NCBI GenBank assembly: GCA_918797485.1 | Contig: CAKKNE010000005.1 | Coordinates: forward strand, 2,356,001 to 2,420,000 | Direction of reading: 5' to 3' | Source of the DNA: Pelagomonas calceolata | Taxonomy: Eukaryota | DNA: 64,000 nt | Shown here: in pieces, positions 785-48,332 of the stretch | Position numbering within the stretch: the stretch's first letter is position 1 | Layout of the letters: each line of letters opens with the position of its first letter | Notes under the pieces: model-generated | Database searches by the model: none | Told to the model about the DNA's origin: nothing | Seen by the model: only the letters and a program-made list of their open reading frames with translations | Position numbers and translations under genes: made by a program

Positions 785-1870
785 ATGCTGCGCATCACTG
801 ATCTACCAAACGACTGCTTGCTCGCGTGTCTCGCGAGGTGCCCGTACGCCGACCTGCGCAATGCTGTCCCCTCGACATGCAAGCAATTGCGTGATGCCGT
901 CGCGTCGTCGGCGTTCCGGAAGACGCGAGAGGCGTCGGGTTGGGTGGAGTGGGGCGTCTTCGCGACGGCACGAGGGGCTTCGACTGACGCCTGTTTTCTG
1001 ATCACCGAATCGGGCACACGCCGTACGGCGCCACGTCCACCATACCAATCAGGCTACTATGTCGAGCGCCCTCAAAACGAGGTCATCGTCATGAGTGGCC
1101 TGGAGCCTATGCGCGCTCGCGCCTATAACCCCAGCGAGAATACATGGCGGGACATCGCACCGCTGGTGCGAATGTATGGCGGCAGGAATTACGATTCTCT
1201 TGACTATCAAGCTTCATTAGGCTGCGTTGGCGGCCATCTTGTGGTCCTCGGTGGCGGGATTGATGAAAGCCGCGAGCCTTTGATGAGGCGCATGGATGCG
1301 TACGATCCAGCTGAGGACACGTGGTCGAGGCTGCCGGATGTGCCATTTACTAGCGACATGAACGGCTTGGTTGAAGTCGGCGGGAAGTTGTATTGCTTTG
1401 GTGGCTATCAAGGGCATCAAGGGCCCGGAAGTCAGCACGAAGATGCACGGCGGACGTTTGTCTATGATCCAGCGACCCGCGCCTGGACGGACGGGCCGCG
1501 GCTTCCACACGAGCCACTGGTCAATGAATATGGTCTTAAATACATTTCAGCCTTCGAGCGATCAAAGCGTCTCTGTATCATGGGCACCTTTAGTCTGAAT
1601 GACGGCCCCTTTAGTCCCTCTCTTTTCTTGGCTTTCGTGTGGGACCCGACGAGAGAGACTTGGGACGCGTTTCCTACGCCGCCGGTCGTGCCCGAATACA
1701 GGAGCGTTAGCCAGGTGGACGGTCATGTTGTTGCTTACGGTTATGATTCTGCCGGGGAGCACATCTTCGTGCTGCGTCCGGGCAGCAGAAACTGGGCCGA
1801 GTGGGACATCCCCGCCGTGGTCGACAACGCAATACCGTTGCCTCACTTCCACGCGGTCCGCATCGGCTAG
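785..1870 (+). CDS. F-box/Kelch-repeat protein
   Basis: N-terminal ITDLPNDCLLACLARCP F-box-like segment; Kelch repeats (LVVLGG...AYDPAEDTWSRL, LYCFGG...VYDPATRAW). Confidence 0.8.
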   Translation: MLRITDLPNDCLLACLARCPYADLRNAVPSTCKQLRDAVASSAFRKTREASGWVEWGVFATARGASTDACFLITESGTRRTAPRPPYQSGYYVERPQNEVIVMSGLEPMRARAYNPSENTWRDIAPLVRMYGGRNYDSLDYQASLGCVGGHLVVLGGGIDESREPLMRRMDAYDPAEDTWSRLPDVPFTSDMNGLVEVGGKLYCFGGYQGHQGPGSQHEDARRTFVYDPATRAWTDGPRLPHEPLVNEYGLKYISAFERSKRLCIMGTFSLNDGPFSPSLFLAFVWDPTRETWDAFPTPPVVPEYRSVSQVDGHVVAYGYDSAGEHIFVLRPGSRNWAEWDIPAVVDNAIPLPHFHAVRIG

Positions 1871-1922
1871 GAATGTGTGTATTGTAGTAAGTGTGTAGTA
1901 TACAAACAAGGGATCTTATACA

Positions 1923-3641
1923 TCAGGCGGCCGGCTGGCTGTAGTGCACGTACGCGCGCATCGGCTCGTCCCTCAGATGAGCTTGCAATTTCCGCCGGTT
2001 GAAGCGGAACGGCGCGAGCGACTGGAGCTCCCGCGCGAGCTGGCGACGCAGCCGCCCCCGCGCCTCCTGGACGAGCGAGTCGTGCTCCGCACCTAATGAA
2101 GCGGCCGCGTCCAACAATCTTTTCCGCCTTTCTGTAACGTCCGCCGCGGGCGCCGTCGTCGCGGCCTTCTCCGTTGAAGGCCGCGGCAGCCGGCACCGCG
2201 CGTAGCGTGCCAGACGACGCCAGCCCTTCGAAGGCCCGTCGCAGTCGAATTCCTCCTTCACCTCGGACGCCTCTTGTACAACGAGCGGCGCCTCGGGAGG
2301 TGAGCACTCGACGAGCCACCGCCCCAAGTCAAAGGCCAGGGACTCGGGCGCCGTCGGTAGGGCTTTTCTCACTTCATCGTCCATCGAATCAGAAAACACG
2401 GGAAATGGGACCGAGGCCGCGTCCGCGTCCTCGCCGACGAGTGCCGTACTTGTTAATCGCGGCAGACTCCCGTCAAAGGCCGCGGCCAGATGCTCGAGAA
2501 AGGGATAGTCCTCCGACAGCTCCACGGCCACTAATAGAGTAGACGGAGACAGTTGCGCGTCCTCGAACACAGCGCCTATTCTTGGAAGGCCGAACTTCGC
2601 GAACCGACCCCTCAGTTCTAGATCTAAAGTCAGGAAGGCTTGCGTGTCGATGGACCACGCTTCCAGGTCCACGGCGAAGGCTAGCGTCGGTTTCTGAGTA
2701 CCACTTCGCTGTTCCAGAGCTTCTACTAAAAAGGAAGGCGTCTCGACGAGTCGACGCATCTCCTTGATACGAGGCGGCCTGAGCCCGAAGTCCACGACCG
2801 CTTCCTTGACTTCAAAAGAAGCGTCGAGCGTTTTCAGCGCTCGTCGCAATTCACCAGTAGCCCTCCGACTGAAGTAGGCGCCCAATCCAGAGCGCCAGAC
2901 GGCCGCCATGTTGTACTCTATCAAGTCGGCGGTCTTGGCGTGCGAACTCAGACCGGGCAGCGCCGGTTCTGCATTAACTTCGACGCGCGTCCGGTTGAGG
3001 GACGGGTCCCGCAACACGGCTCTTAACGAAAACACGACGCAGAGCCACTTCAATAGTAGGTATAACAGCGCCGACCAGCGGCGCTTTTTGTGAAACGGGT
3101 CCCGCTTTGTCGGCGAGAGCGTCGCCCTCCCAAGCGCAAAAGCTAAGACGAGCATGCCCAGCAGGCTCCGCTCCCGCAACAGATTGAAGCGCCGCCAGAG
3201 CTCCGCCGCGACGCCCAGACATCGGAAGACGAGGCTTTGGGTCGATTGGCGCAGGACGTCGCGCTTCCTATGCCGCGTCGTAGCGTTGTAGCTCGGCGTC
3301 GGCCGCGGCGACGGCCAGAAGCGCTTCCGCCGCGTTGTAGACAGGGTGTCCTTCTTCTTCAGCGTCTTGAGTAATTGCCGGGCGCCCTCCGCGCGCGTCG
3401 CGGTGCCATCGAGGTAGTTCGAGGCTCTTTGTAAACCCTCGCTCGTCCGTCGCGACGCGTAGGTCACGGCCTTCAGGGCCGTCCGGGCGAGCTTCCCTCT
3501 TAATGAATCGTCGCGCGGGACCTTCGCGGGCCGCGCGCGGGCCGGGGGCACCGGCTCGCCCTGGAAGTGGACGGAGACGGGCTCCGAGAAGAGGCTCGCG
3601 GGCGCCGCGGCGGCGGTTGCTACCACGAGGAGGCGGAGCAT
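1923..3641 (-). CDS. Membrane protein with signal peptide, two TM helices and a possible SMP-like lipid-binding domain
   Basis: 572-aa ORF, hydrophobic N-terminus, two hydrophobic stretches followed by a beta-rich region. Confidence 0.55.
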   Translation of the reverse strand: MLRLLVVATAAAAPASLFSEPVSVHFQGEPVPPARARPAKVPRDDSLRGKLARTALKAVTYASRRTSEGLQRASNYLDGTATRAEGARQLLKTLKKKDTLSTTRRKRFWPSPRPTPSYNATTRHRKRDVLRQSTQSLVFRCLGVAAELWRRFNLLRERSLLGMLVLAFALGRATLSPTKRDPFHKKRRWSALLYLLLKWLCVVFSLRAVLRDPSLNRTRVEVNAEPALPGLSSHAKTADLIEYNMAAVWRSGLGAYFSRRATGELRRALKTLDASFEVKEAVVDFGLRPPRIKEMRRLVETPSFLVEALEQRSGTQKPTLAFAVDLEAWSIDTQAFLTLDLELRGRFAKFGLPRIGAVFEDAQLSPSTLLVAVELSEDYPFLEHLAAAFDGSLPRLTSTALVGEDADAASVPFPVFSDSMDDEVRKALPTAPESLAFDLGRWLVECSPPEAPLVVQEASEVKEEFDCDGPSKGWRRLARYARCRLPRPSTEKAATTAPAADVTERRKRLLDAAASLGAEHDSLVQEARGRLRRQLARELQSLAPFRFNRRKLQAHLRDEPMRAYVHYSQPAA

Positions 3642-4234
3642 GGTTTATGGGCACGCGGGCCGCTGCGCTGCACTGAGCGGGTGCTGCTCTTTTGAACGGC
3701 TACTGCTGGCGCTCTTCGCGTGCCGCAGGCGAGGCGGCTGGGATTTGGTGAGTTTGGTGATTACTTATGAGGCGCGGCAAGGTTCAGAGTCCTGTATCAT
3801 GCTCACCGCCGCGCACTCGGCACGTTCGTACACGTTGGGCAAAATCAACATGCTCTCGATCAATGGGCATGTCAAGGCGGGGCGGACTTGGAGTCCGGTC
3901 GGAGACTGGCCCCACGAACCGGACGCCTCAGTGCAACCGAGCAAGCCTGCCCCAGAAACCGCCGGAAACGCCTCGTCCCGGCCTCCACCACCTGCCTTCC
4001 GGCCCGCACCCGGGAGGCGCCGGCGCGCGAGCCGTCCGGAGCGCCCGGAGAGCCGTCAGGCTGGCCGGCCCGCCCCGAAATCAGGCAGGGCAAGACTTGG
4101 AGACTGGTGTTCGGCTCGACGCTGCCCCCGGGCACGCGCCGCCGCGCAGCGCAATACACGCTGCCCAGGCAACGCGCTACACCCCACTGCGATCGCTGCC
4201 CGCGAAAAAGCGACCGGTGACGGCCGCACCAGGC

Positions 4235-5458
4235 ATGGCCCGCCGCACCATATTAGCAGTAGCCGCCGGGCTCCTGCTCCTGCTGGGCGCGGCCCACGTT
4301 TACCTGCATCCCACCCTACAACCAACTGCACATGAGGACGACACAATAGCGCGCTTGGAAAAGCTGCACCAGGCGCTCGCCGAGAAGACGTCAATGCAGG
4401 AAAAAACGCTCGCGTCGTACAAAGCGACGACACTCGCCGCCCAGGACGCCATGAAGGCGCAGGCGAACCCCACCACCTCTAGAATTGAGGAGGCCGTCGC
4501 GGCGCGCCTGGCCGCGATTCAGCGAGAGGCCGACCTCCACGCCGAGGCGCACCAGGAGCACCATGAAGATCCGTACATCTTGCAGAAGCACAACGGTCAT
4601 ATACCTTTCGTGTTTGTCGCCGGTCTGGAGGGCACGGGGCACCACTGGTGGAAGGCCTTTTGGGAACAGTGCGGTAGTAAGGCGCGGCCTTCACTACTAG
4701 GACCGCTGGCCTGGCAAAGGGCAGCTGCCGTTTTCAACGCGAAGATGGCCCTGGACCTGCCCGCCTCCAAGTTAATGACGGAGGCCGCGCGGGCCGAGAC
4801 CAACACTGGCGGAACTGTCTACGCCCTGAATACCCTAGGAGGCCGCAACGACGAGGCCATGCGCCTCCTCAAGGCATCAGCCCCTGGCCAACAACTCCCC
4901 TGGGGCGAGGGCGAGGGCATGGGTTCGTATCCAAACTGGTGGGGCACGCCGACGCCGGACCACAAAGCGTTGCAAATGCCCGATCTTACTTATATGGCGG
5001 ATGCGTTGCGAGGCGTCCAGGGCGCCCAACTGCGCATTGTCCTACTCACGCGCGAGGCGTCACAAATCGTGCGAAGCGTCTGCGACAAGCGGAACTTCGC
5101 GAAGAGCGTCGGTGGTTGCGCCGCGGAGGTGCAAATTTTATCACTGGGTGCTGGTATCTTATCAACGCAACTCGAGGCGCTGCCGCCCCCCCCTTCAGTA
5201 ATCTGCGAGCACGTGCGCTTCGGTAAACTGCAAGCCGGCGACGCGGAAACGCTGGAGCGGCTCAGCGTGCTCTCGGGCATCGACGACGCGGCGCGCGTCG
5301 CGAAGCGCGTGCGCGCGCCGCCGTCGCCGCCCGGCGGGGCCGGGCCCAAGACGGAGCGGGCCAAGCGCGATCGGGAGCAGCTGGTGGGTGTGTTGGCGCG
5401 CGCGCAGGAGGCCGCGGTGAGCGCGTGCGCGCGGCAGGCGCTGCGGCGTGGTGCGTAA
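4235..5458 (+). CDS. Type II membrane sulfotransferase-like (P-loop) protein
   Basis: N-terminal TM (MARRTILAVAAGLLLLLG), coiled stem, FVFVAGLEGTGHHWW PAPS-loop-like motif, IVLLTRE. Confidence 0.6.
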   Translation: MARRTILAVAAGLLLLLGAAHVYLHPTLQPTAHEDDTIARLEKLHQALAEKTSMQEKTLASYKATTLAAQDAMKAQANPTTSRIEEAVAARLAAIQREADLHAEAHQEHHEDPYILQKHNGHIPFVFVAGLEGTGHHWWKAFWEQCGSKARPSLLGPLAWQRAAAVFNAKMALDLPASKLMTEAARAETNTGGTVYALNTLGGRNDEAMRLLKASAPGQQLPWGEGEGMGSYPNWWGTPTPDHKALQMPDLTYMADALRGVQGAQLRIVLLTREASQIVRSVCDKRNFAKSVGGCAAEVQILSLGAGILSTQLEALPPPPSVICEHVRFGKLQAGDAETLERLSVLSGIDDAARVAKRVRAPPSPPGGAGPKTERAKRDREQLVGVLARAQEAAVSACARQALRRGA

Positions 5459-11709: not shown

Positions 11710-13951
11710 ATGTCCAAGCGCCAAAAGACCGATGAAGCATGCCCTTGCTGCGAATTGAGAGCACGCCAGGCCTCGAGCTGGCAATTCCTACCGCCGAACA
11801 TGGCGCCAAAAGGCGCCTGCCAGCAGTGCGTGCTGCCGCCGCCGCCGCCGCTAAGTGACTACCTGCCGCCCTTCGTCTGGCCGCGCACGGCGGCGGAGAT
11901 CGAAGGGCTCGCCCAAGGAGTGGAAATAGACTTCACGTCGACGATGGACCGCGTCGCCGCCGTCTCGGACGCGGACGCGTCCGTGGAGACGGTGTTAAGA
12001 CCGCTCATGGGCGCGCCGCACTACAAGACGAACAAGGCCGTCGTCGAAGCAAAGTTCCTCCAGCACTGCTCGACGGATTCTGCCGTGAGAGAGGCCGCGG
12101 ACAAGGCCGGCGCGCGATTCGCGGCGCTCAAGGCGAAGGGCCGAACGGACCCGCGCATCTACGGCCGCGTCTGCGCGCTGGCGGCGAAGAACACCGTCTC
12201 CGGTCGCGACGCGCACTTCGTGCAAGCATTGAAAGCTGGCTTCGAGCGCAGCGGCCTCAACTTGTCGCCGGCCGACCAGAAGAAGTTGCAGGAACTGCGC
12301 GACGCCGACGCCAAGGTCTGCGGCCTCTTCAAGAAGAACCTCGCCGAGGACAAAACCGAGCTCCTGTTCGACAAGAATGAACTCGAAGGGTGTTCTGATG
12401 CCTGGATCGCGGAGCGGACGAGGGACGGGAAAGTCGTCGTTACGCTCAAATACCCCGATTTGATCCCTGTGCTGCAGCAGTGCTCCGTCGCTGCGACGCG
12501 GCGGCGCGTCTCGCGGGCGCGGGAATGCGAGGCGTACGGCGCGAATTTGGACTACGTGGCGGAAGGCGTCGCGATCCGGAAGCAAATCGCCGACCTGCTG
12601 GGCTACAAGAGCTGGGCGCATCTCAGTACCGAGACGAGGATGAGCGGCTCGCCCGAGGCCGTCACGGCCTTCATGGACCCGCTGCTGGCCAAGGTCAAGG
12701 AGGGCGCGGCGCGGGACCTCGAACGCTTGAAATCTCTGAAGGGTGGGGCCCTCGAGGCCTCCGACGTCAGCTTCTACTCCGCTAAATTATTGAAGGAACA
12801 GTATGGTGTAGATCACGAGGCGGTACGCGCCTACTTTCCTCTCGATCATGTGGTGGCGACGACGCTCGAGATCTACCAGGAGCTGCTAGGCTTAGAGTTC
12901 ATCGAGATCGAGAAGTGTGGACGCGGCGTCGCGAAGCGTCTTCCGATCGTCGCGTCGATGGCGTGGAGGGGATCACGCCGTCACGCCGTCGCAGGTTCGA
13001 CACGTGGCACCCCGCGGTGCGCCTCTTCCGCGTCATTGATGTGGCGACGAAGCAGAAGCAGGGGTTCTTCTACCTCGACTTACATCCCCGCGACGGCAAG
13101 TACGGCCACGCGGCCATCTTCCACCTCCTAAAAAGATGGGGCGACCAGGTGCCGGTGGACTGCATGCTTTGCAACTTACCAGCTCCCTCGGCCGACGGCA
13201 AGCCGGCGTTGTTACGGCACTCGAACTGCGTCACGTTCTTCCACGAGTTCGGACATATTATGCACGGTTTATGTGCTTCCGGTGATGGCAACTCGACGAC
13301 GCTGGCGAAATGCCCGCGCGACTTCGTCGAGGCGCCGTCGCAGATGCTCGAGAACTGGTGCTGGACCGTCGAAGGGTTGAAGCGCCTGTCGAAGCACCAC
13401 GAGACCGGGGCGACGCTGCCGCGCGATTTGCTGGATAAAATGCTCGACGCTAAAAATGTCAACGTCGGGTTGAACATGGCGCGGCAGATCTATCTGTCTA
13501 CTTTGGATTTGGAGATCCACGGCACCGATCCGCCGACGACGGCGGAAGGTCTGCAGGCGCTCGTCGATCGGTTGCGGCCGGAGATCTCGCTCATCGAGAA
13601 CCCGCCGGGCGCGAACATGCTACGCTCGTTCGGTCACCTCATGAATCAATACAGCGCCGCGCTGTGTGGAAATCAAAATTTTACGGCGCGTTCGCGTCGA
13701 CTCCATGCCATCGACGCGCCGATTTCGACACAGGTGCCGCGTATTATGGCTATCTGTGGGCGGAAGTGCTCTCGGCGGATATGTTTAGCCAGTGTTTCGA
13801 GAAGGACCCCTTCGACGCGAAGGCGGGCCGGCGCTACCGGGACCTCGTCCTTGCGCCGGGCGGCGTCGGAAAGATCCTCGACCACCTCACCACGTTCCTC
13901 GGCCGGCCGCCGTCGCAGGAGGCGTTCCTCAAAAGCCGCGGCATCGCGTAA
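11710..13951 (+). CDS. M3-family metallopeptidase (thimet oligopeptidase/neurolysin), 3 exons (11710-12914, 12995-13653, 13734-13951)
   Basis: FYLDLHPRDGKYGHAA, HEFGH zinc motif, DFVEAPSQMLENW, YSAAYYGYLWAEV; removing two 80-nt introns gives a continuous 693-aa ORF. Confidence 0.92.
12915..12994 (+). mobile_element. Degenerate introner-derived intron (80 nt)
   Basis: GT...CAG intron restoring EIEK/FDTWH; starts GTGTGGA like the family TIR and contains the core CGTCGCGTCGATGGCGTGGAG. Confidence 0.7.
13662..13733. mobile_element. Introner element (MITE-like); intron 13654-13733 with GC donor
   Basis: TIRs CTGTGTGGAAATC / GATTTCGACACAG; 8-bp TSD GCGCCGCG (13654-13661) and GTGCCGCG (13734-13741). 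Confidence 0.9.
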
Positions 13952-43246: not shown

Positions 43247-43542
43247 CACACCGTCATCGCATCACTACGGGCGTGGCTTTGGCAGCCCATATCCGCCGTC
43301 GTCGCATCGCTACGCCGAGTTGGGCAGCCTGCCATGCCTCTGCTGCTGGGCTCTCTGCCAGGAAGTCAAATCGCAGAAACCTCCGCGCAGCCCTGCGAGC
43401 CATCGAAGCACCTCTACGTGTCGGTTTCAGGACCTGTCCGTAAGTTGATCCCGGGCCCCGGGCCCGGGCCGCGGCGATCTCGACTGTTTTCAGACACTTC
43501 GAGGCAATCGGAAGATTGCTGTTTTTGCAGCAGATTTGGCAC

Positions 43543-45505
43543 ATGGCAGCATCTAGCAGCGCGGCGCGGCGTCCCTATATCCACCTTGCACTCGTGCAGC
43601 AGCGGCAGCGCATGCGCGTTGCATCGGGACGGCGCGCGAGGCCCTGCAATTGGGGCTGCCCTGTGAACGCCCCACCGCGCAGGCACGCTGCGGCTCCTCG
43701 CGCTCGCGCTGTCCGCGGCGACAGCGCGGGCCGCCTGCCCGGCGGCCACGCTGGACTTCGTCATCAACGAGGGCGACGCGGCCCACGAGGCCTACGCCGC
43801 GGACATCGCCGCCGAACTCACCAAGCTCGGCCTGGCGGTCAACATGAGGCCCCTCGACAAAGACGCGAAGAACGCGGCCATGGTCAACGGCGACTACGAC
43901 CTCGTCTTCTCGGAGACGTGGGGCGCGCCCTACGACCCGCACTCGTACGTCAAATCGTGGGCCTCCCCCGACGAGGCGCACTACAGCGCGCTGCCGACCG
44001 CGGGCATCGACCGGGTCGCCTTCGAGGCCCAGGTCGACGCCGTGCTCTCGGAGATGGACGAGACGGAGCGCCAGAGCAAGTGGACGGCGCTCCTCTCGGA
44101 GATCCACTACGACGTCCTGCATTTACCCCTCTGGGGCAAGCGCATTCCCTCCCTGGTCAACAACGCGCGCCTCTCGGGCTACGTGCCCGGCGCGCAGCAG
44201 TACGACTACCCGCTCCACAAGGTGACCGTCCTCGACGCCGACAAGACCGTGAAGGTGGCGCCGGGCGCCCAGACGGGCCTGTTCGCGTCCGTCGGCCGCC
44301 TCGACCCGCACAGCTACCGGCCGAACGAGTTCTTCGCGAACAACTGGGTCTACGAGGGCCTCATCGCCTACGGCGTAGGCGGTACGCTGGAGCCGGCGCT
44401 CGCGACGGCGTGGACGTCGACGGTGAACTCCGACGGCGGCGAGACGGTCCGCTTCACGCTTCGCACGGGCGTCAAGTTCCACGACGGCGCGGACTTCGAC
44501 TGCGCGGCCGTGAAGCTCAACTTCGACCACGTCTTCGCGGAGGAGCTCACGACCGGTGACTGGCACGGGTGGTACGGCCTGCCGGAAGTGTACAAGGACT
44601 GTTCGTGCGACGGCGAGACGTTTGTGCTGAACACGAAGAAGGCCTACTACCCGCTCCTGCAGGAGCTCTCGTACATCCGCCCGCTGCGCATGCTCTCGCC
44701 GACGGCGTTCGTCGGAGGCGCCGCCAGTGACCCCGTGACGCAGAACTCGTGCCCGACGGGCTGGGACGCCGACCTTTCGACGATCACGTGCGCCGGCACG
44801 ACGGCCATCGCCGGCACGGGCCCGTGGAAGTTCGAGTCGCGCACGGCGAGCGCCGACAGCACCGACGACGACGTACAAGATGATCTGGTCGTCTTCGCGG
44901 CGAACGCGGACTACTGGGGGACCACGGGGGACATCGAGAAGCTGCACGTCGTGAAGTACGCCGACTCGGCGGCCGTCAAGGCCGCGCTCGAAGCCGGGAC
45001 CCTCGACGCCGTGGTCGGCGCCGGGGTGCTCGCGCCCGCGGACGAGGAGGCGCTCGGGGCCCAGGCCGGCTTCGACCTCGCGTACGGCGAGCTGTCGCAG
45101 AACTCGGTGATCATCATGAACATCGCCGACGCGGACATGCGGCAGGCGGTGGTCCAGGCCATCGACAGCGACCCGATCATCGCCAGCGAGCTGAACGACG
45201 CGTACCAGCCCACGGGCCGGCTGTTCCCGGCGACGCTGCCGTACTGCGACGTGACGCTGGCCGAGGTCGACTACGACCTCGAGAAGGCCAAGCGGGTCAT
45301 CGACATCGACCTCCTCTGCCCCGCCGACAGCAAGAAGAAGGGCGACGACGGCCTGAGCGGCGGCATCGTCGCGCTCATCGTGATCCTCGTGGTCGTCCTC
45401 GCCCTCGTCGTCGCGTTCGTCGGCTACGTCGTGATGAAGGAGAAGGCCGGCGAGCCCCTCTTCATGGAGGTGACGACCAAGACGCCCCTCCAGGAGAAAG
45501 TCTGA
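43543..45505 (+). CDS. Circularly permuted NikA/CntA-type (SBP family 5) metal-binding protein with signal peptide and C-terminal TM (ZCRP-B-like); probable intron 43571-43682
   Basis: TWGAPYDPH motif precedes LDPHSY/VYEGL/LRTGVKFHDG/GTGPW/YDLEKAK; C-terminal IVALIVILVVVLALVVAFVGYVV; first exon is inferred. Confidence 0.85.
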
Positions 45506-45640
45506 TCTCCCCGCGGTCACGCGACTCACGCCCTCCTTCCCCCCCCGCTTGCAAGCTAGCGTAAAGTTCTGAGGGTCATTGCCATGCGTCTTTTATGATA
45601 GCATACTTGCTTCTGAGTACTCTAAGAACCAAAAATCCAG

Positions 45641-46555: not shown

Positions 46556-46621
46556 GTTGTCTCGACTTCACCAGGTCCTTTGCGGCCGCCGCGGCGGCGG
46601 CGTGTGGCTTCACGCGTCCGT

Positions 46622-46732
46622 GTTGCTGAGGCTGAGGCTAGTTACGTCGCAGGGTTCCCCGTACCCCTCCCGCTCCCCCCGGTTGCTGAGGCTGAGGCTA
46701 GTTACGTCGCAGGGTTCCCCGTACCCCTCCCG
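46622..46732. repeat. Tandem duplication, two identical 51-bp copies with 60-bp period
   Basis: GTTGCTGAGGCTGAGGCTAGTTACGTCGCAGGGTTCCCCGTACCCCTCCCG at 46622 and 46682. Confidence 0.95.
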
Positions 46733-46740
46733 GTTGCTTG

Positions 46741-46762
46741 CTAGTGTGTTACATGCCGCTAG
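46741..46762. promoter_or_regulatory. CTAG-box motif copy
   Basis: CTAGTGTGTTACATGCCGCTAG. Confidence 0.65.
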
Positions 46763-47459: not shown

Positions 47460-48332
47460 TTAGCTACTACCACTGGAGGGGGACCGGCCGCGCCGCGCCA
47501 GGCCCTTGCGGCGCGGCGTCGGCGGAGGCTTCGGCGACCGGGAGCGGGACCGCGACCGGGACCGGGAAGCCACGTCGTCCAGCAGGGGGTCGTCCTCGTA
47601 CGCGAGCATGGGCCGGAAGTCGGTCAGGTCGCACTTCAGGAGCACGCGCTTCGGGAGCGGCGGCTGGCCGCGGGGGGATTTGTGCGTGAGTCCGCTGCCT
47701 TTGATCCCGGGCCACGCGTCGCCCTTCATCAATAGAACAGCGTTCGTGGGAATTTCATGGCATGACGAGACGACGTGCTCGTTGTCCTCCTCGCCCATGG
47801 ACGCCTCGAATGCGTCCCAATCGACCTGTGCGTCGTCCGCGGCCAAGGTCCCGGGCCCGACGTAGCACACGAGGGTCCGCCCGCAGTAGCCGTCCTGGTG
47901 CCAGCGCCAACACGCTTCCTCGTGCAGGATCTCGATGCGCAGCGTGAGCCACGGCGTGGCCGGCGAGAGCCGCCGCGACAGGCGCACGAGCGCCGCCGCG
48001 TCGTCGCGGACGGCCGCGCGGAACGAGTCTGGGAGTTCGGACACTAGCTGGTCCAGCGCGGCCTCGACGTCCTCCTCCGTCGCGAGCTCGTGGTCGTCGT
48101 CGCAATCGCTGTCTTCACAGGGCGGCGGCGCGACGAGTAATTGTGCAGACGCGAACTCGCCGAACATCAAGTCTTCTTCCTCCTGGCCATTCAGCCACGT
48201 CGCGATCTGCGCCGCCTTGGTGTGCGGTCCGCGTTCGATGTAGACACCCTTGGCGTTTTGACGGCGGGCGGCTTTCTCGAGGCCCGCGAATGTTGCCGGT
48301 GATGCGCGGACGACGGTTCCGCGGCGGCTCAT
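47460..48332 (-). CDS. DUF1826 family (2OG-Fe dioxygenase-like) protein
   Basis: CWRWHQD...RTLVCYVGPGT, LLMKG, GLTHKSP, RVLLKCD motifs. Confidence 0.8.
   Translation of the reverse strand: MSRRGTVVRASPATFAGLEKAARRQNAKGVYIERGPHTKAAQIATWLNGQEEEDLMFGEFASAQLLVAPPPCEDSDCDDDHELATEEDVEAALDQLVSELPDSFRAAVRDDAAALVRLSRRLSPATPWLTLRIEILHEEACWRWHQDGYCGRTLVCYVGPGTLAADDAQVDWDAFEASMGEEDNEHVVSSCHEIPTNAVLLMKGDAWPGIKGSGLTHKSPRGQPPLPKRVLLKCDLTDFRPMLAYEDDPLLDDVASRSRSRSRSRSPKPPPTPRRKGLARRGRSPSSGSS

What the first reader, a model, noticed from the sequence alone, without database searches (positions are those of the whole stretch)
43543..45505. Circularly permuted, membrane-tethered NikA/CntA-type metal-binding protein in a eukaryote
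Seen: after a signal peptide the protein starts with what is the C-terminal third of bacterial family-5 solute-binding proteins (LGLAVN...DLVFSETWGAPYDPHS...LPLW), then continues into the canonical N-terminal part (LDPHSY, VYEGL, PALATAW, FTLRTGVKFHDG, GTGPW, RQAVVQAID, YDLEKAK), and ends in a TM helix and short tail. Known: TWGAPYDP is characteristic of NikA/CntA nickel or metallophore-binding proteins, and diatom ZCRP-B is a NikA-like membrane-tethered Zn/Co-responsive protein. No ABC permease or ATPase is nearby, and codon bias is extreme (almost all G/C third positions), suggesting high expression. Inference: a bacterial gene re-threaded so that a new C-terminus can be anchored as a cell-surface metal or metallophore receptor.
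Basis: partly seen in the sequence, partly recalled or inferred. Interest (0 to 1): 0.75.

Follow-up and report, generated by a model that had tools for sequence, protein, structure and literature searches.

The report
Re-threaded bacterial metal receptor in algae
This marine alga expresses a relative of the bacterial nickel-binding protein NikA whose two halves have swapped order, a rearrangement shared by a large algal family, and it is predicted to sit on the cell surface, where it likely captures organically bound zinc or cobalt.

Summary
The circular permutation is real. The spliced, expressed 612-aa protein (identical to Pelagomonas calceolata CAH0376719.1) carries NikA residues ~334-499 first and ~1-329 second, then a transmembrane helix. 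Sequence, AlphaFold and structure alignment agree, and reads show no further exons. It is not a one-off: all 120 top homologues examined (pelagophytes, Triparma, dinoflagellates, a diatom) are permuted; none of 62 prokaryotic loci is. Permuted forms make one clade beside unpermuted algal-type relatives, 7 of 10 of which already have a C-terminal anchor. Two cysteines at the new ends occur together (135 of 139) and likely staple the cut. NikA's aromatic/Arg137 pocket is kept but His416 is a conserved Glu: likely a receptor for a metal-chelate, not NikA itself. The family is likely that of diatom ZCRP-B (indirect evidence only). In published proteomes the protein rises 3.6-fold with iron under high light, so it is not an iron-starvation protein. 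Metal and partner are untested. I found no report of the permutation. New variant of a known kind.

The parts
43543..43558 (+). Exon 1, coding part (start codon, first residues of the predicted signal peptide)
   Evidence: Spliced reads and contigs join 43558 to 43683; transcript contigs begin at 43482-43502
43559..43682 (+). 124-base GC-AG intron
   Evidence: Joint in 4 of 4 raw RNA runs and 3 of 4 contig runs laid; spliced product identical to the 612-aa NCBI protein
43683..43735 (+). Rest of the predicted signal peptide (to about residue 23)
   Evidence: Short hydrophobic stretch ending A-R-A-A before Cys24; read by eye, no signal-peptide program was run
43736..43738 (+). Cys24, at the new N-terminus; predicted disulfide partner of Cys551
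   Evidence: A Cys within 12 residues before the first strand and one after the last helix co-occur in 135 of 139 homologues, both absent in 3, one only in 1
43736..44236 (+). Block equal to the C-terminal third of NikA (residues 24-190 = NikA ~334-499), with W85 (=W398), Y89 (=Y402), E103 (=H416), N69 (=Y382)
   Evidence: phmmer; structure alignment Z 13.5; numbering counted from the alignment and checked against the pocket list in PMC11091072
43973..43975 (+). Glu103, in place of the Ni-binding His416 of NikA
   Evidence: Glu in 138 of 147 family rows; His in 40 of 53 prokaryote-type rows
44228..44254 (+). Short linker joining the old C-terminus to the old N-terminus
   Evidence: Gap between the blocks is 10-16 residues wherever a C block directly precedes the main N block; pLDDT 95-98 there
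44240..45319 (+). Block equal to the N-terminal two thirds of NikA (residues 192-551 = NikA ~1-329), with Y217 (=Y22), W302 (=W100), R338 (=R137); ends at Cys551
   Evidence: PF00496 241-545, E 2.4e-45; phmmer; structure alignment Z 27
45365..45436 (+). Predicted transmembrane helix (residues 567-590)
   Evidence: Hydropathy peak 3.7; present in 130 of 137 homologues with a long enough C-terminus
45437..45505 (+). Predicted cytosolic tail with EKxGxP[LIV]F motif, and stop codon
   Evidence: Motif in 33 of 146 permuted homologues and in unpermuted relatives P0292, P0325, P0329
45506..45582 (+). 3' UTR and poly(A) sites
   Evidence: Poly(A) loose ends at 45578-45582

Best explanation
The gene encodes a circularly permuted NikA-like (family 5) solute-binding protein, predicted to be a type I cell-surface protein that likely closes its two lobes on an organically chelated divalent metal, most likely zinc or cobalt, and likely passes it to a separate uptake route. 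Shown: gene structure, expression, swapped order, NikA fold, kept pocket residues, family range. Inferred history: a bacterial nikA-like gene entered algae once in its native order and gained a C-terminal membrane anchor; later one copy was permuted, most simply by tandem duplication and loss of the outer halves, which joined the old ends with a short hairpin and removed the ~20-residue surface loop at NikA 321-340; a disulfide between Cys24 and Cys551 then likely stapled the cut. Inferred mechanism: W85, Y89, Y217, W302 and R338 hold the chelator as in NikA, and Glu103 takes the place of His416 at or near the metal; with no NikBCDE partner, release is likely to ZIP-type transporters or by endocytosis through the conserved tail, as proposed for ZCRP-B. 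The permutation itself is likely functionally near neutral and was not needed for anchoring.
For: Swapped blocks; AlphaFold pLDDT 94.6, pTM 0.91 for the permuted chain. One transcript, protein identical to CAH0376719.1 and detected in proteomes (PMC13284251 Supplementary Data 8). 120 of 120 listed homologues permuted, 0 of 62 GTDB loci. Tree: algal-type clade SH-aLRT 100, permuted forms one clade 96, unpermuted forms outside; each block alone gives the same split (97 and 92). 7 of 10 unpermuted relatives anchored. Tandem forms exist in both orders (P0248 permuted dimer; P0316 native dimer). Cys co-occurrence 135 of 139; both absent in basal P0250/P0251. Pocket residues. Fusions with a PF01497 siderophore/B12-type binding domain at either end (P0050, P0250, P0251). 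Peptides read from primers of the P. tricornutum ZCRP-B locus score best against permuted-family members (top 25 rows; best 84 against 57 for native-order prokaryotes and 49 for native-order algal types). ZCRP-B is induced by low Zn/Co and sits in the membrane (PMC9010474).
Against: No binding, localisation or Zn/Co/Ni response data for this protein. ZCRP-B itself could not be retrieved; the primer peptides (23 residues) point to a subclade only 38-39% identical to this protein, so this may be a paralogue with another ligand. Kellogg et al. report a single helix near the N-terminus of ZCRP-B, not the C-terminus, and overexpression did not raise Co uptake. In the P. calceolata proteomes three COG0523 (ZCRP-A-like) proteins do not share this protein's pattern (the FASTA searched was cut at about half). 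Only one unpermuted relative has a eukaryote name in its cluster (Calcidiscus), and that one lacks the anchor. Trees are quick searches without bootstrap.
Confidence: 0.6

Rival explanations
1. One reading: the permutation was selected because it allowed a C-terminal anchor, or because it changed where the tether attaches (from lobe I to lobe II; lobe limits recalled, not from a call) and so how the cleft faces the membrane.
For: The permuted form dominates the algal hits (120 of 120 listed) and has kept the order and the Cys pair across stramenopiles, dinoflagellates and a green alga, which would fit an advantage.
Against: 7 of 10 unpermuted relatives have a C-terminal anchor, with a tail alignable to this one (47% over 45 residues with P0292), so anchoring did not need it. 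Some permuted members lack the anchor (P0169; 7 of 137). Searches were seeded with permuted queries, so their dominance is partly by design.
Confidence: 0.12
2. It is a nickel receptor, as in NikA, feeding urease and Ni-superoxide dismutase.
For: Best matches by sequence and fold are NikA; most pocket residues are kept; P. calceolata has urease and non-ferrous (Cu/Zn and Ni) SODs (passages).
Against: His416, the Ni ligand, is Glu; Tyr382, Arg386 and Arg97 are changed; below the NikA cut-off (256 against 393). Urea transport protein rises at low iron while this protein falls. The only studied family member responds to Zn/Co.
Confidence: 0.16
3. It binds a non-metal organic nutrient (peptide, amino-acid derivative or similar), as many family 5 proteins do.
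For: Family 5 includes peptide and opine binders; the direct metal ligand is lost; abundance follows high light plus iron, i.e. general demand, and not the COG0523 proteins seen.
Against: Peptide binders score far lower (E 1e-11 or worse against 5e-76 for NikA); the chelate pocket is nearly invariant; fusion partners are PF01497 metal-chelate binders.
Confidence: 0.1
4. The order is an artefact of assembly or the remnant of a longer tandem gene with upstream exons.
For: Tandem versions exist in the family (P0248; fragments P0003, P0010, P0065, P0080).
Against: One 1.97-kb transcript, depth near zero at 43343-43469, reads continuous across the block junction; no second copy in the window; same order in 120 homologues.
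Confidence: 0.01

Closest known systems
Diatom ZCRP-B (Kellogg et al. 2022, PMC9010474)
   Same: Algal NikA-like protein of about 30% identity to NikA, one membrane helix, no NikB/C partners; homologues in dinoflagellates and diatoms. Primer-derived peptides of the P. tricornutum locus fit the permuted family best.
   Different: The paper does not mention a permutation ('permut' 0 times in the main text) and places the helix near the N-terminus. The best-fitting subclade is 38-39% identical to this protein, so orthology is open. Zn/Co induction is untested here.
NikA of E. coli and Brucella (TIGR02294; PDB 1uiu, 4oer)
   Same: Same fold (Z 27 and 13.5 for the two blocks) and pocket residues Y22, W100, R137, W398, Y402.
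   Different: Blocks swapped; 321-340 loop gone; His416 to Glu, Tyr382 to Asn, Arg97 and Arg386 lost; conserved cysteines added; C-terminal anchor; no nikBCDE.
CntA of Staphylococcus aureus (NF047575; PDB 5yh5)
   Same: Family 5 binder of a metal-metallophore complex; same fold (Z 26.6).
   Different: Score 168 against a cut-off of 800; native order; bacterial lipoprotein of an ABC system.
FBP1 of diatoms (Coale et al. 2019, PMC6876252) and phytotransferrin ISIP2a
   Same: FBP1 is a bacterial-type binding protein gained by horizontal transfer and used by algae for chelated-metal uptake without its ABC transporter; ISIP2a is a single-helix anchored surface metal binder.
   Different: Other binding-protein classes, iron substrates, induced by iron starvation; this protein falls at low iron under high light. 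No permutation described in the passages read.
Natural circular permutations by duplication and deletion (e.g. DNA methyltransferases, swaposins; recalled, no call)
   Same: Adjacent native termini joined, new ends opened in a surface loop, tandem forms found among relatives.
   Different: Not known to me for a family 5 solute-binding protein; here new ends likely carry a disulfide staple.

Membership tests
Family 5 solute-binding proteins (PF00496) | Profile score above the gathering cut-off | tested here: met
   155.7 bits against 32.4, E 2.4e-45
Family 5 solute-binding proteins (PF00496) | Two-lobed NikA/DppA fold | tested here: met
   AlphaFold pLDDT 94.6; Z 27 over 320 residues and Z 13.5 over 163 residues to NikA
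Circularly permuted protein | Each part of the parent present once, in swapped order, in one transcript | tested here: met
Circularly permuted protein | Both parts come from one parent lineage (not a chimera) | tested here: met
   Separate trees of the two blocks give the same three groups
NikA (TIGR02294) | Score above the equivalog cut-off | tested here: not met
   256 bits against 393; the split order lowers the score
NikA (TIGR02294) | His416 as direct nickel ligand | tested here: not met
   Glu103; Glu in 138 of 147 family rows
NikA (TIGR02294) | Chelate pocket Y22, W100, R137, W398, Y402 | tested here: met
   Y217, W302, R338, W85, Y89; 38-40 of 40 permuted rows each
NikA (TIGR02294) | Encoded with NikBCDE permease and ATPase | tested here: not met
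   None in the 64-kb window; the whole genome was not available
CntA (NF047575) | Score above cut-off | tested here: not met
   168 bits against 800
ZCRP-B | Algal protein with about 30% identity to NikA | tested here: met
   31-36% to bacterial NikA-like proteins per block; phmmer E 6e-50 to E. coli NikA
ZCRP-B | Orthology with P. tricornutum 49168 | tested here: inconclusive
   Full sequence not retrieved; 23 residues read from primers fit a sister subclade of the permuted family
ZCRP-B | Single membrane helix near the N-terminus, as published | tested here: not met
   The helix is C-terminal here and in 130 of 137 homologues; the published call is a prediction whose figure I could not see
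ZCRP-B | Induced by low Zn or Co | not testable with these tools
   Only an iron-by-light data set was found
ZCRP-B | Located in the cell membrane | not testable with these tools
   Topology predicted from hydropathy only

The most novel reading that the evidence does not exclude
Most eukaryotic phytoplankton groups share one re-engineered bacterial receptor: permutation moved the tether to the other lobe, a disulfide stapled the cut, and a Glu replaced the nickel His, giving an ABC-independent receptor that takes metallophore-bound zinc or cobalt from seawater and is endocytosed through a conserved tail motif, the zinc counterpart of siderophore piracy by FBP1.
Probability: 0.2. Interest if true: 0.78.

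Novelty: new variant of a known kind. Interest (0 to 1): 0.52.

Why it matters
How algae take up zinc and cobalt that is bound to organic ligands in seawater is open, and ZCRP-B is the main candidate receptor. The permutation explains why it aligns poorly to NikA, maps its pocket correctly for the first time as far as my searches show (Glu for His416), and suggests that its published topology should be rechecked. It also gives a practical marker: ZCRP-B hits in an Antarctic metaproteome all turned out to be bacterial (bioRxiv 10.1101/2023.11.05.565706, passage), whereas the junction between the swapped blocks was found in none of the 62 prokaryotic loci and none of the prokaryote-like single-domain representatives examined. 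As evolution, it is a clean natural permutation with unpermuted relatives, tandem forms and a likely stabilising disulfide all still extant.

Tried and rejected
Whole-genome search for paralogues and partners: no genome held. Retrieval of the ZCRP-B sequence: not among named hits; two exact scans of metagenome contigs with primer sequences found nothing; a paper search for the gene number found only the source paper as relevant; the other four primers were too short to fix block order. ESM Atlas gave only bacterial family 5 clusters. An AU test on the unpermuted algal-type rows did not finish and is not used. Two homologues scored as native order (P0003, P0010) are tandem fragments; one GTDB locus scored as permuted (L056) is a second gene on the other strand; one representative scored as permuted (P0316) is an archaeal native-order tandem. 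Extreme GC3 as proof of high expression: rejected, since neighbours reach 0.90-0.94 and mean transcript level in one study was about 21 CPM. Iron-uptake role: rejected. No complex prediction was sent, as no partner was in hand. Earlier findings of the scan: none returned.

Full report
Gene and organism. The frame 43667-45505 is open for 612 codons. RNA reads join 43558 to 43683 across a 124-base GC-AG intron in 4 of 4 raw runs (58, 14, 26, 54 reads) and 3 of 4 contig runs laid, and the transcript runs from about 43482 to poly(A) sites at 45578-45582 with no further exon. The spliced 612-aa product is identical to NCBI CAH0376719.1 of Pelagomonas calceolata, annotated only as a family 5 solute-binding domain protein. 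It has a signal-like N-terminus (read by eye), one strongly hydrophobic helix at about 567-590 and a 22-residue tail. There is no second copy in the window and no relative of the permease or ATPase genes that flank the bacterial genes (motifs in 47 and 42 of 62 loci; 576 ORFs searched). Neighbours are unrelated: ankyrin, DUF1826, cytochrome b5, glycosyltransferase, histidine phosphatase. The whole genome was not available.

The permutation. phmmer places residues 36-187 on Brucella NikA 347-496 and 208-546 on 11-318. NCBIfam's best model is NikA (E 5e-76, two stretches, 256 bits against a cut-off of 393). AlphaFold folds the ectodomain at pLDDT 94.6. An order-keeping structure aligner matches only model residues 169-532 (protein 192-555) to NikA 1-329 (Z 27; rmsd 2.0 A to the open form 1uiu); the first 167 residues folded alone match NikA 324/334-499 (Z 13.5). 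No solved structure aligned over the whole chain among the 50 rows shown. Both new ends therefore map to NikA 324-337, a loop of about 20 residues in the bacterial proteins that is missing here.

Family range. The first search found 337 homologues; the 120 listed all carry the C block directly before the main N block (script: 118, plus 2 tandem fragments with an extra partial block in front; 217 hits not examined). Named members include Chrysophaeum, Aureococcus, Triparma, Symbiodinium, Thalassiosira, Skeletonema and the green alga Chloropicon. Of 62 GTDB loci, 61 are in native order and one is a fragment. Among the best 150 cluster representatives, 63 are native order, 24 score as permuted (one of them an archaeal native tandem) and 63 are fragments. 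Longer forms include a permuted tandem dimer (P0248) and fusions with a PF01497 binding domain in front (P0050) or behind (P0250, P0251).

Order of events. The representative search also returned native-order proteins with algal-type motifs, one clustering with Calcidiscus leptoporus. In a tree of 103 rows on the two blocks (475 columns, quick IQ-TREE, SH-aLRT only), all 50 algal-type rows form one clade (100), the 40 permuted rows one clade within it (96), and the 10 native-order rows lie outside that. Each block alone gives the same groups (permuted 97 and 92; prokaryotes 100 and 98; 40 rows), so both halves share a history. No single bacterial donor group is resolved. Seven of the 10 native-order rows end in a hydrophobic segment; three match the KEKxGxP[LIV]F tail by pattern and two more by eye, and the anchor of P0292 aligns with this protein's (47% over 45 residues). 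Anchoring therefore came before, or apart from, the permutation. That these rows are eukaryotic is inferred from the tree; only one has a named eukaryote in its cluster and it lacks the anchor. Duplication followed by loss of the outer halves is the simplest route (inference).

Cysteine staple. A Cys just before the first strand and one just after the last helix occur together in 135 of 139 homologues with both ends present, are both absent in 3, and one alone in 1; both are also absent in P0250/P0251, the earliest-branching permuted pair. A disulfide closing the cut is likely; I could not measure it, as no coordinates were returned.

Pocket. NikA's chelate pocket is Y22, M27, W100, Y382, W398, Y402, R137 with H416 on the metal (PMC11091072, passages). 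Counting along the alignments: Y217, F222, W302, N69, W85, Y89, R338 and E103. Y22, W100, R137 and Y402 are kept in 40 of 40 permuted rows and W398 in 38; the H416 site is Glu in 37 of 40 permuted and 8 of 10 native algal-type rows, His in 40 of 53 prokaryote-type rows. So the ligand change also predates the permutation. This fits a carboxylate-bearing metal chelate with a different metal or geometry (inference).

Expression. In four raw runs of one sample label the gene body has depth of roughly 900-4800 against 60-215 for the next genes downstream and under 30 upstream; 1,850-2,420 reads per million records fell on the stretches laid; culture conditions unknown. In PMC13284251 (passages and supplement rows) the gene averages about 21 CPM, and its protein is 3.6-fold higher in iron-replete than iron-limited cells under high light (means 16.8 and 4.7; log2FC 1.78 and 1.59, adjusted p 3e-5 and 2e-4) with no change under low light. 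It is not an iron-starvation protein. The paper says ZIP proteins were also higher when iron was replete. Three COG0523-type proteins found in the part of the FASTA that could be searched do not share the pattern, which does not support, but cannot exclude, a Zn regulon.

Link to ZCRP-B. PMC9010474 (sections 6, 9, 10, 11, 13, 14, 19, 24, passages, supplements 1 and 4 in full text, supplement 2 in passages) describes ZCRP-B as 30.5% identical to NikA, Zn/Co-induced, membrane-located, with one predicted helix near the N-terminus, and never uses 'permut'. Its Fig. 4j and the alignment in Supplementary Fig. 6 are pictures that I could not see and could bear on this. Two primers of the P. tricornutum locus translate to 23 residues that score best against permuted-family members (top 25 of 524 rows are permuted or fragments of that family; best 84, native prokaryote-type 57, native algal-type 49). 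The best-fitting subclade (P0255, P0259) is 38-43% identical to this protein and to diatom and dinoflagellate members, in line with the 41% the paper gives between its own diatom ZCRP-Bs. ZCRP-B is thus likely permuted too, but orthology with this gene is open.

Novelty. Searches for circular permutation with NikA and algae and with substrate-binding protein, eukaryote and horizontal transfer returned 0 papers; circularly permuted solute-binding protein returned 7, none on this family by the 6 listings shown; 'zcrp' returned 21 listings, and the three algal Zn papers I opened lack 'permut'. The library holds only open papers and bioRxiv; bioRxiv supplements were closed. Also seen: PMC6876252 (passages, section 16) and PMC9481584 (passages). 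The kind of system, a bacterial binding protein turned into an anchored algal receptor, is known (ZCRP-B, FBP1). The family-wide permutation, its place after anchoring, the likely disulfide staple and the His-to-Glu change appear unreported. Verdict: real, new variant of a known kind, interest 0.52.

Noticed in passing
P0050, P0250, P0251 (homologue search): Two-receptor fusions: the permuted NikA-like domain joined to a PF01497 (siderophore/B12-type) binding domain, once in front and twice behind; P0250/P0251 end in one membrane helix and lack both terminal cysteines.
   Followed up: partly
P0248, P0003, P0010, P0065, P0080: Tandem repeats of the permuted unit; the junction puts the two terminal cysteines 3-9 residues apart and recreates a native-order unit in the middle. 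P0003 is in its distal part nearly identical to this gene, so a tandem paralogue or an assembly chimera may exist in close relatives.
   Followed up: partly
P0279: Native-order algal-type member that ends in a small Cys-rich segment instead of a membrane helix; it looks ShK-like by eye but Pfam gave no hit.
   Followed up: partly
P0316: Methanophagales archaeal cluster with a native-order tandem duplication of a family 5 domain, the kind of intermediate a duplication route needs, though distantly related.
   Followed up: no
P0249: Permuted domain at the end of a 1715-aa model with RhoGAP, SH3 and copper monooxygenase domains; may be merged gene models.
   Followed up: no
window 46596-46745: A direct repeat of about 55 bases (ggttgctgaggctgaggct...) between two genes, seen by eye; reads show variant letters there.
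   Followed up: no
window 13146-13945 +: Relative of a bacterial M3-type peptidase (HExxH motif in the query; E 5e-27).
   Followed up: no
window 47460-48332 -: DUF1826 protein (E 1e-23), expressed; from memory this family often lies beside COG0523 zinc-homeostasis genes in bacteria, which would be worth checking given its place 2 kb from this gene.
   Followed up: no
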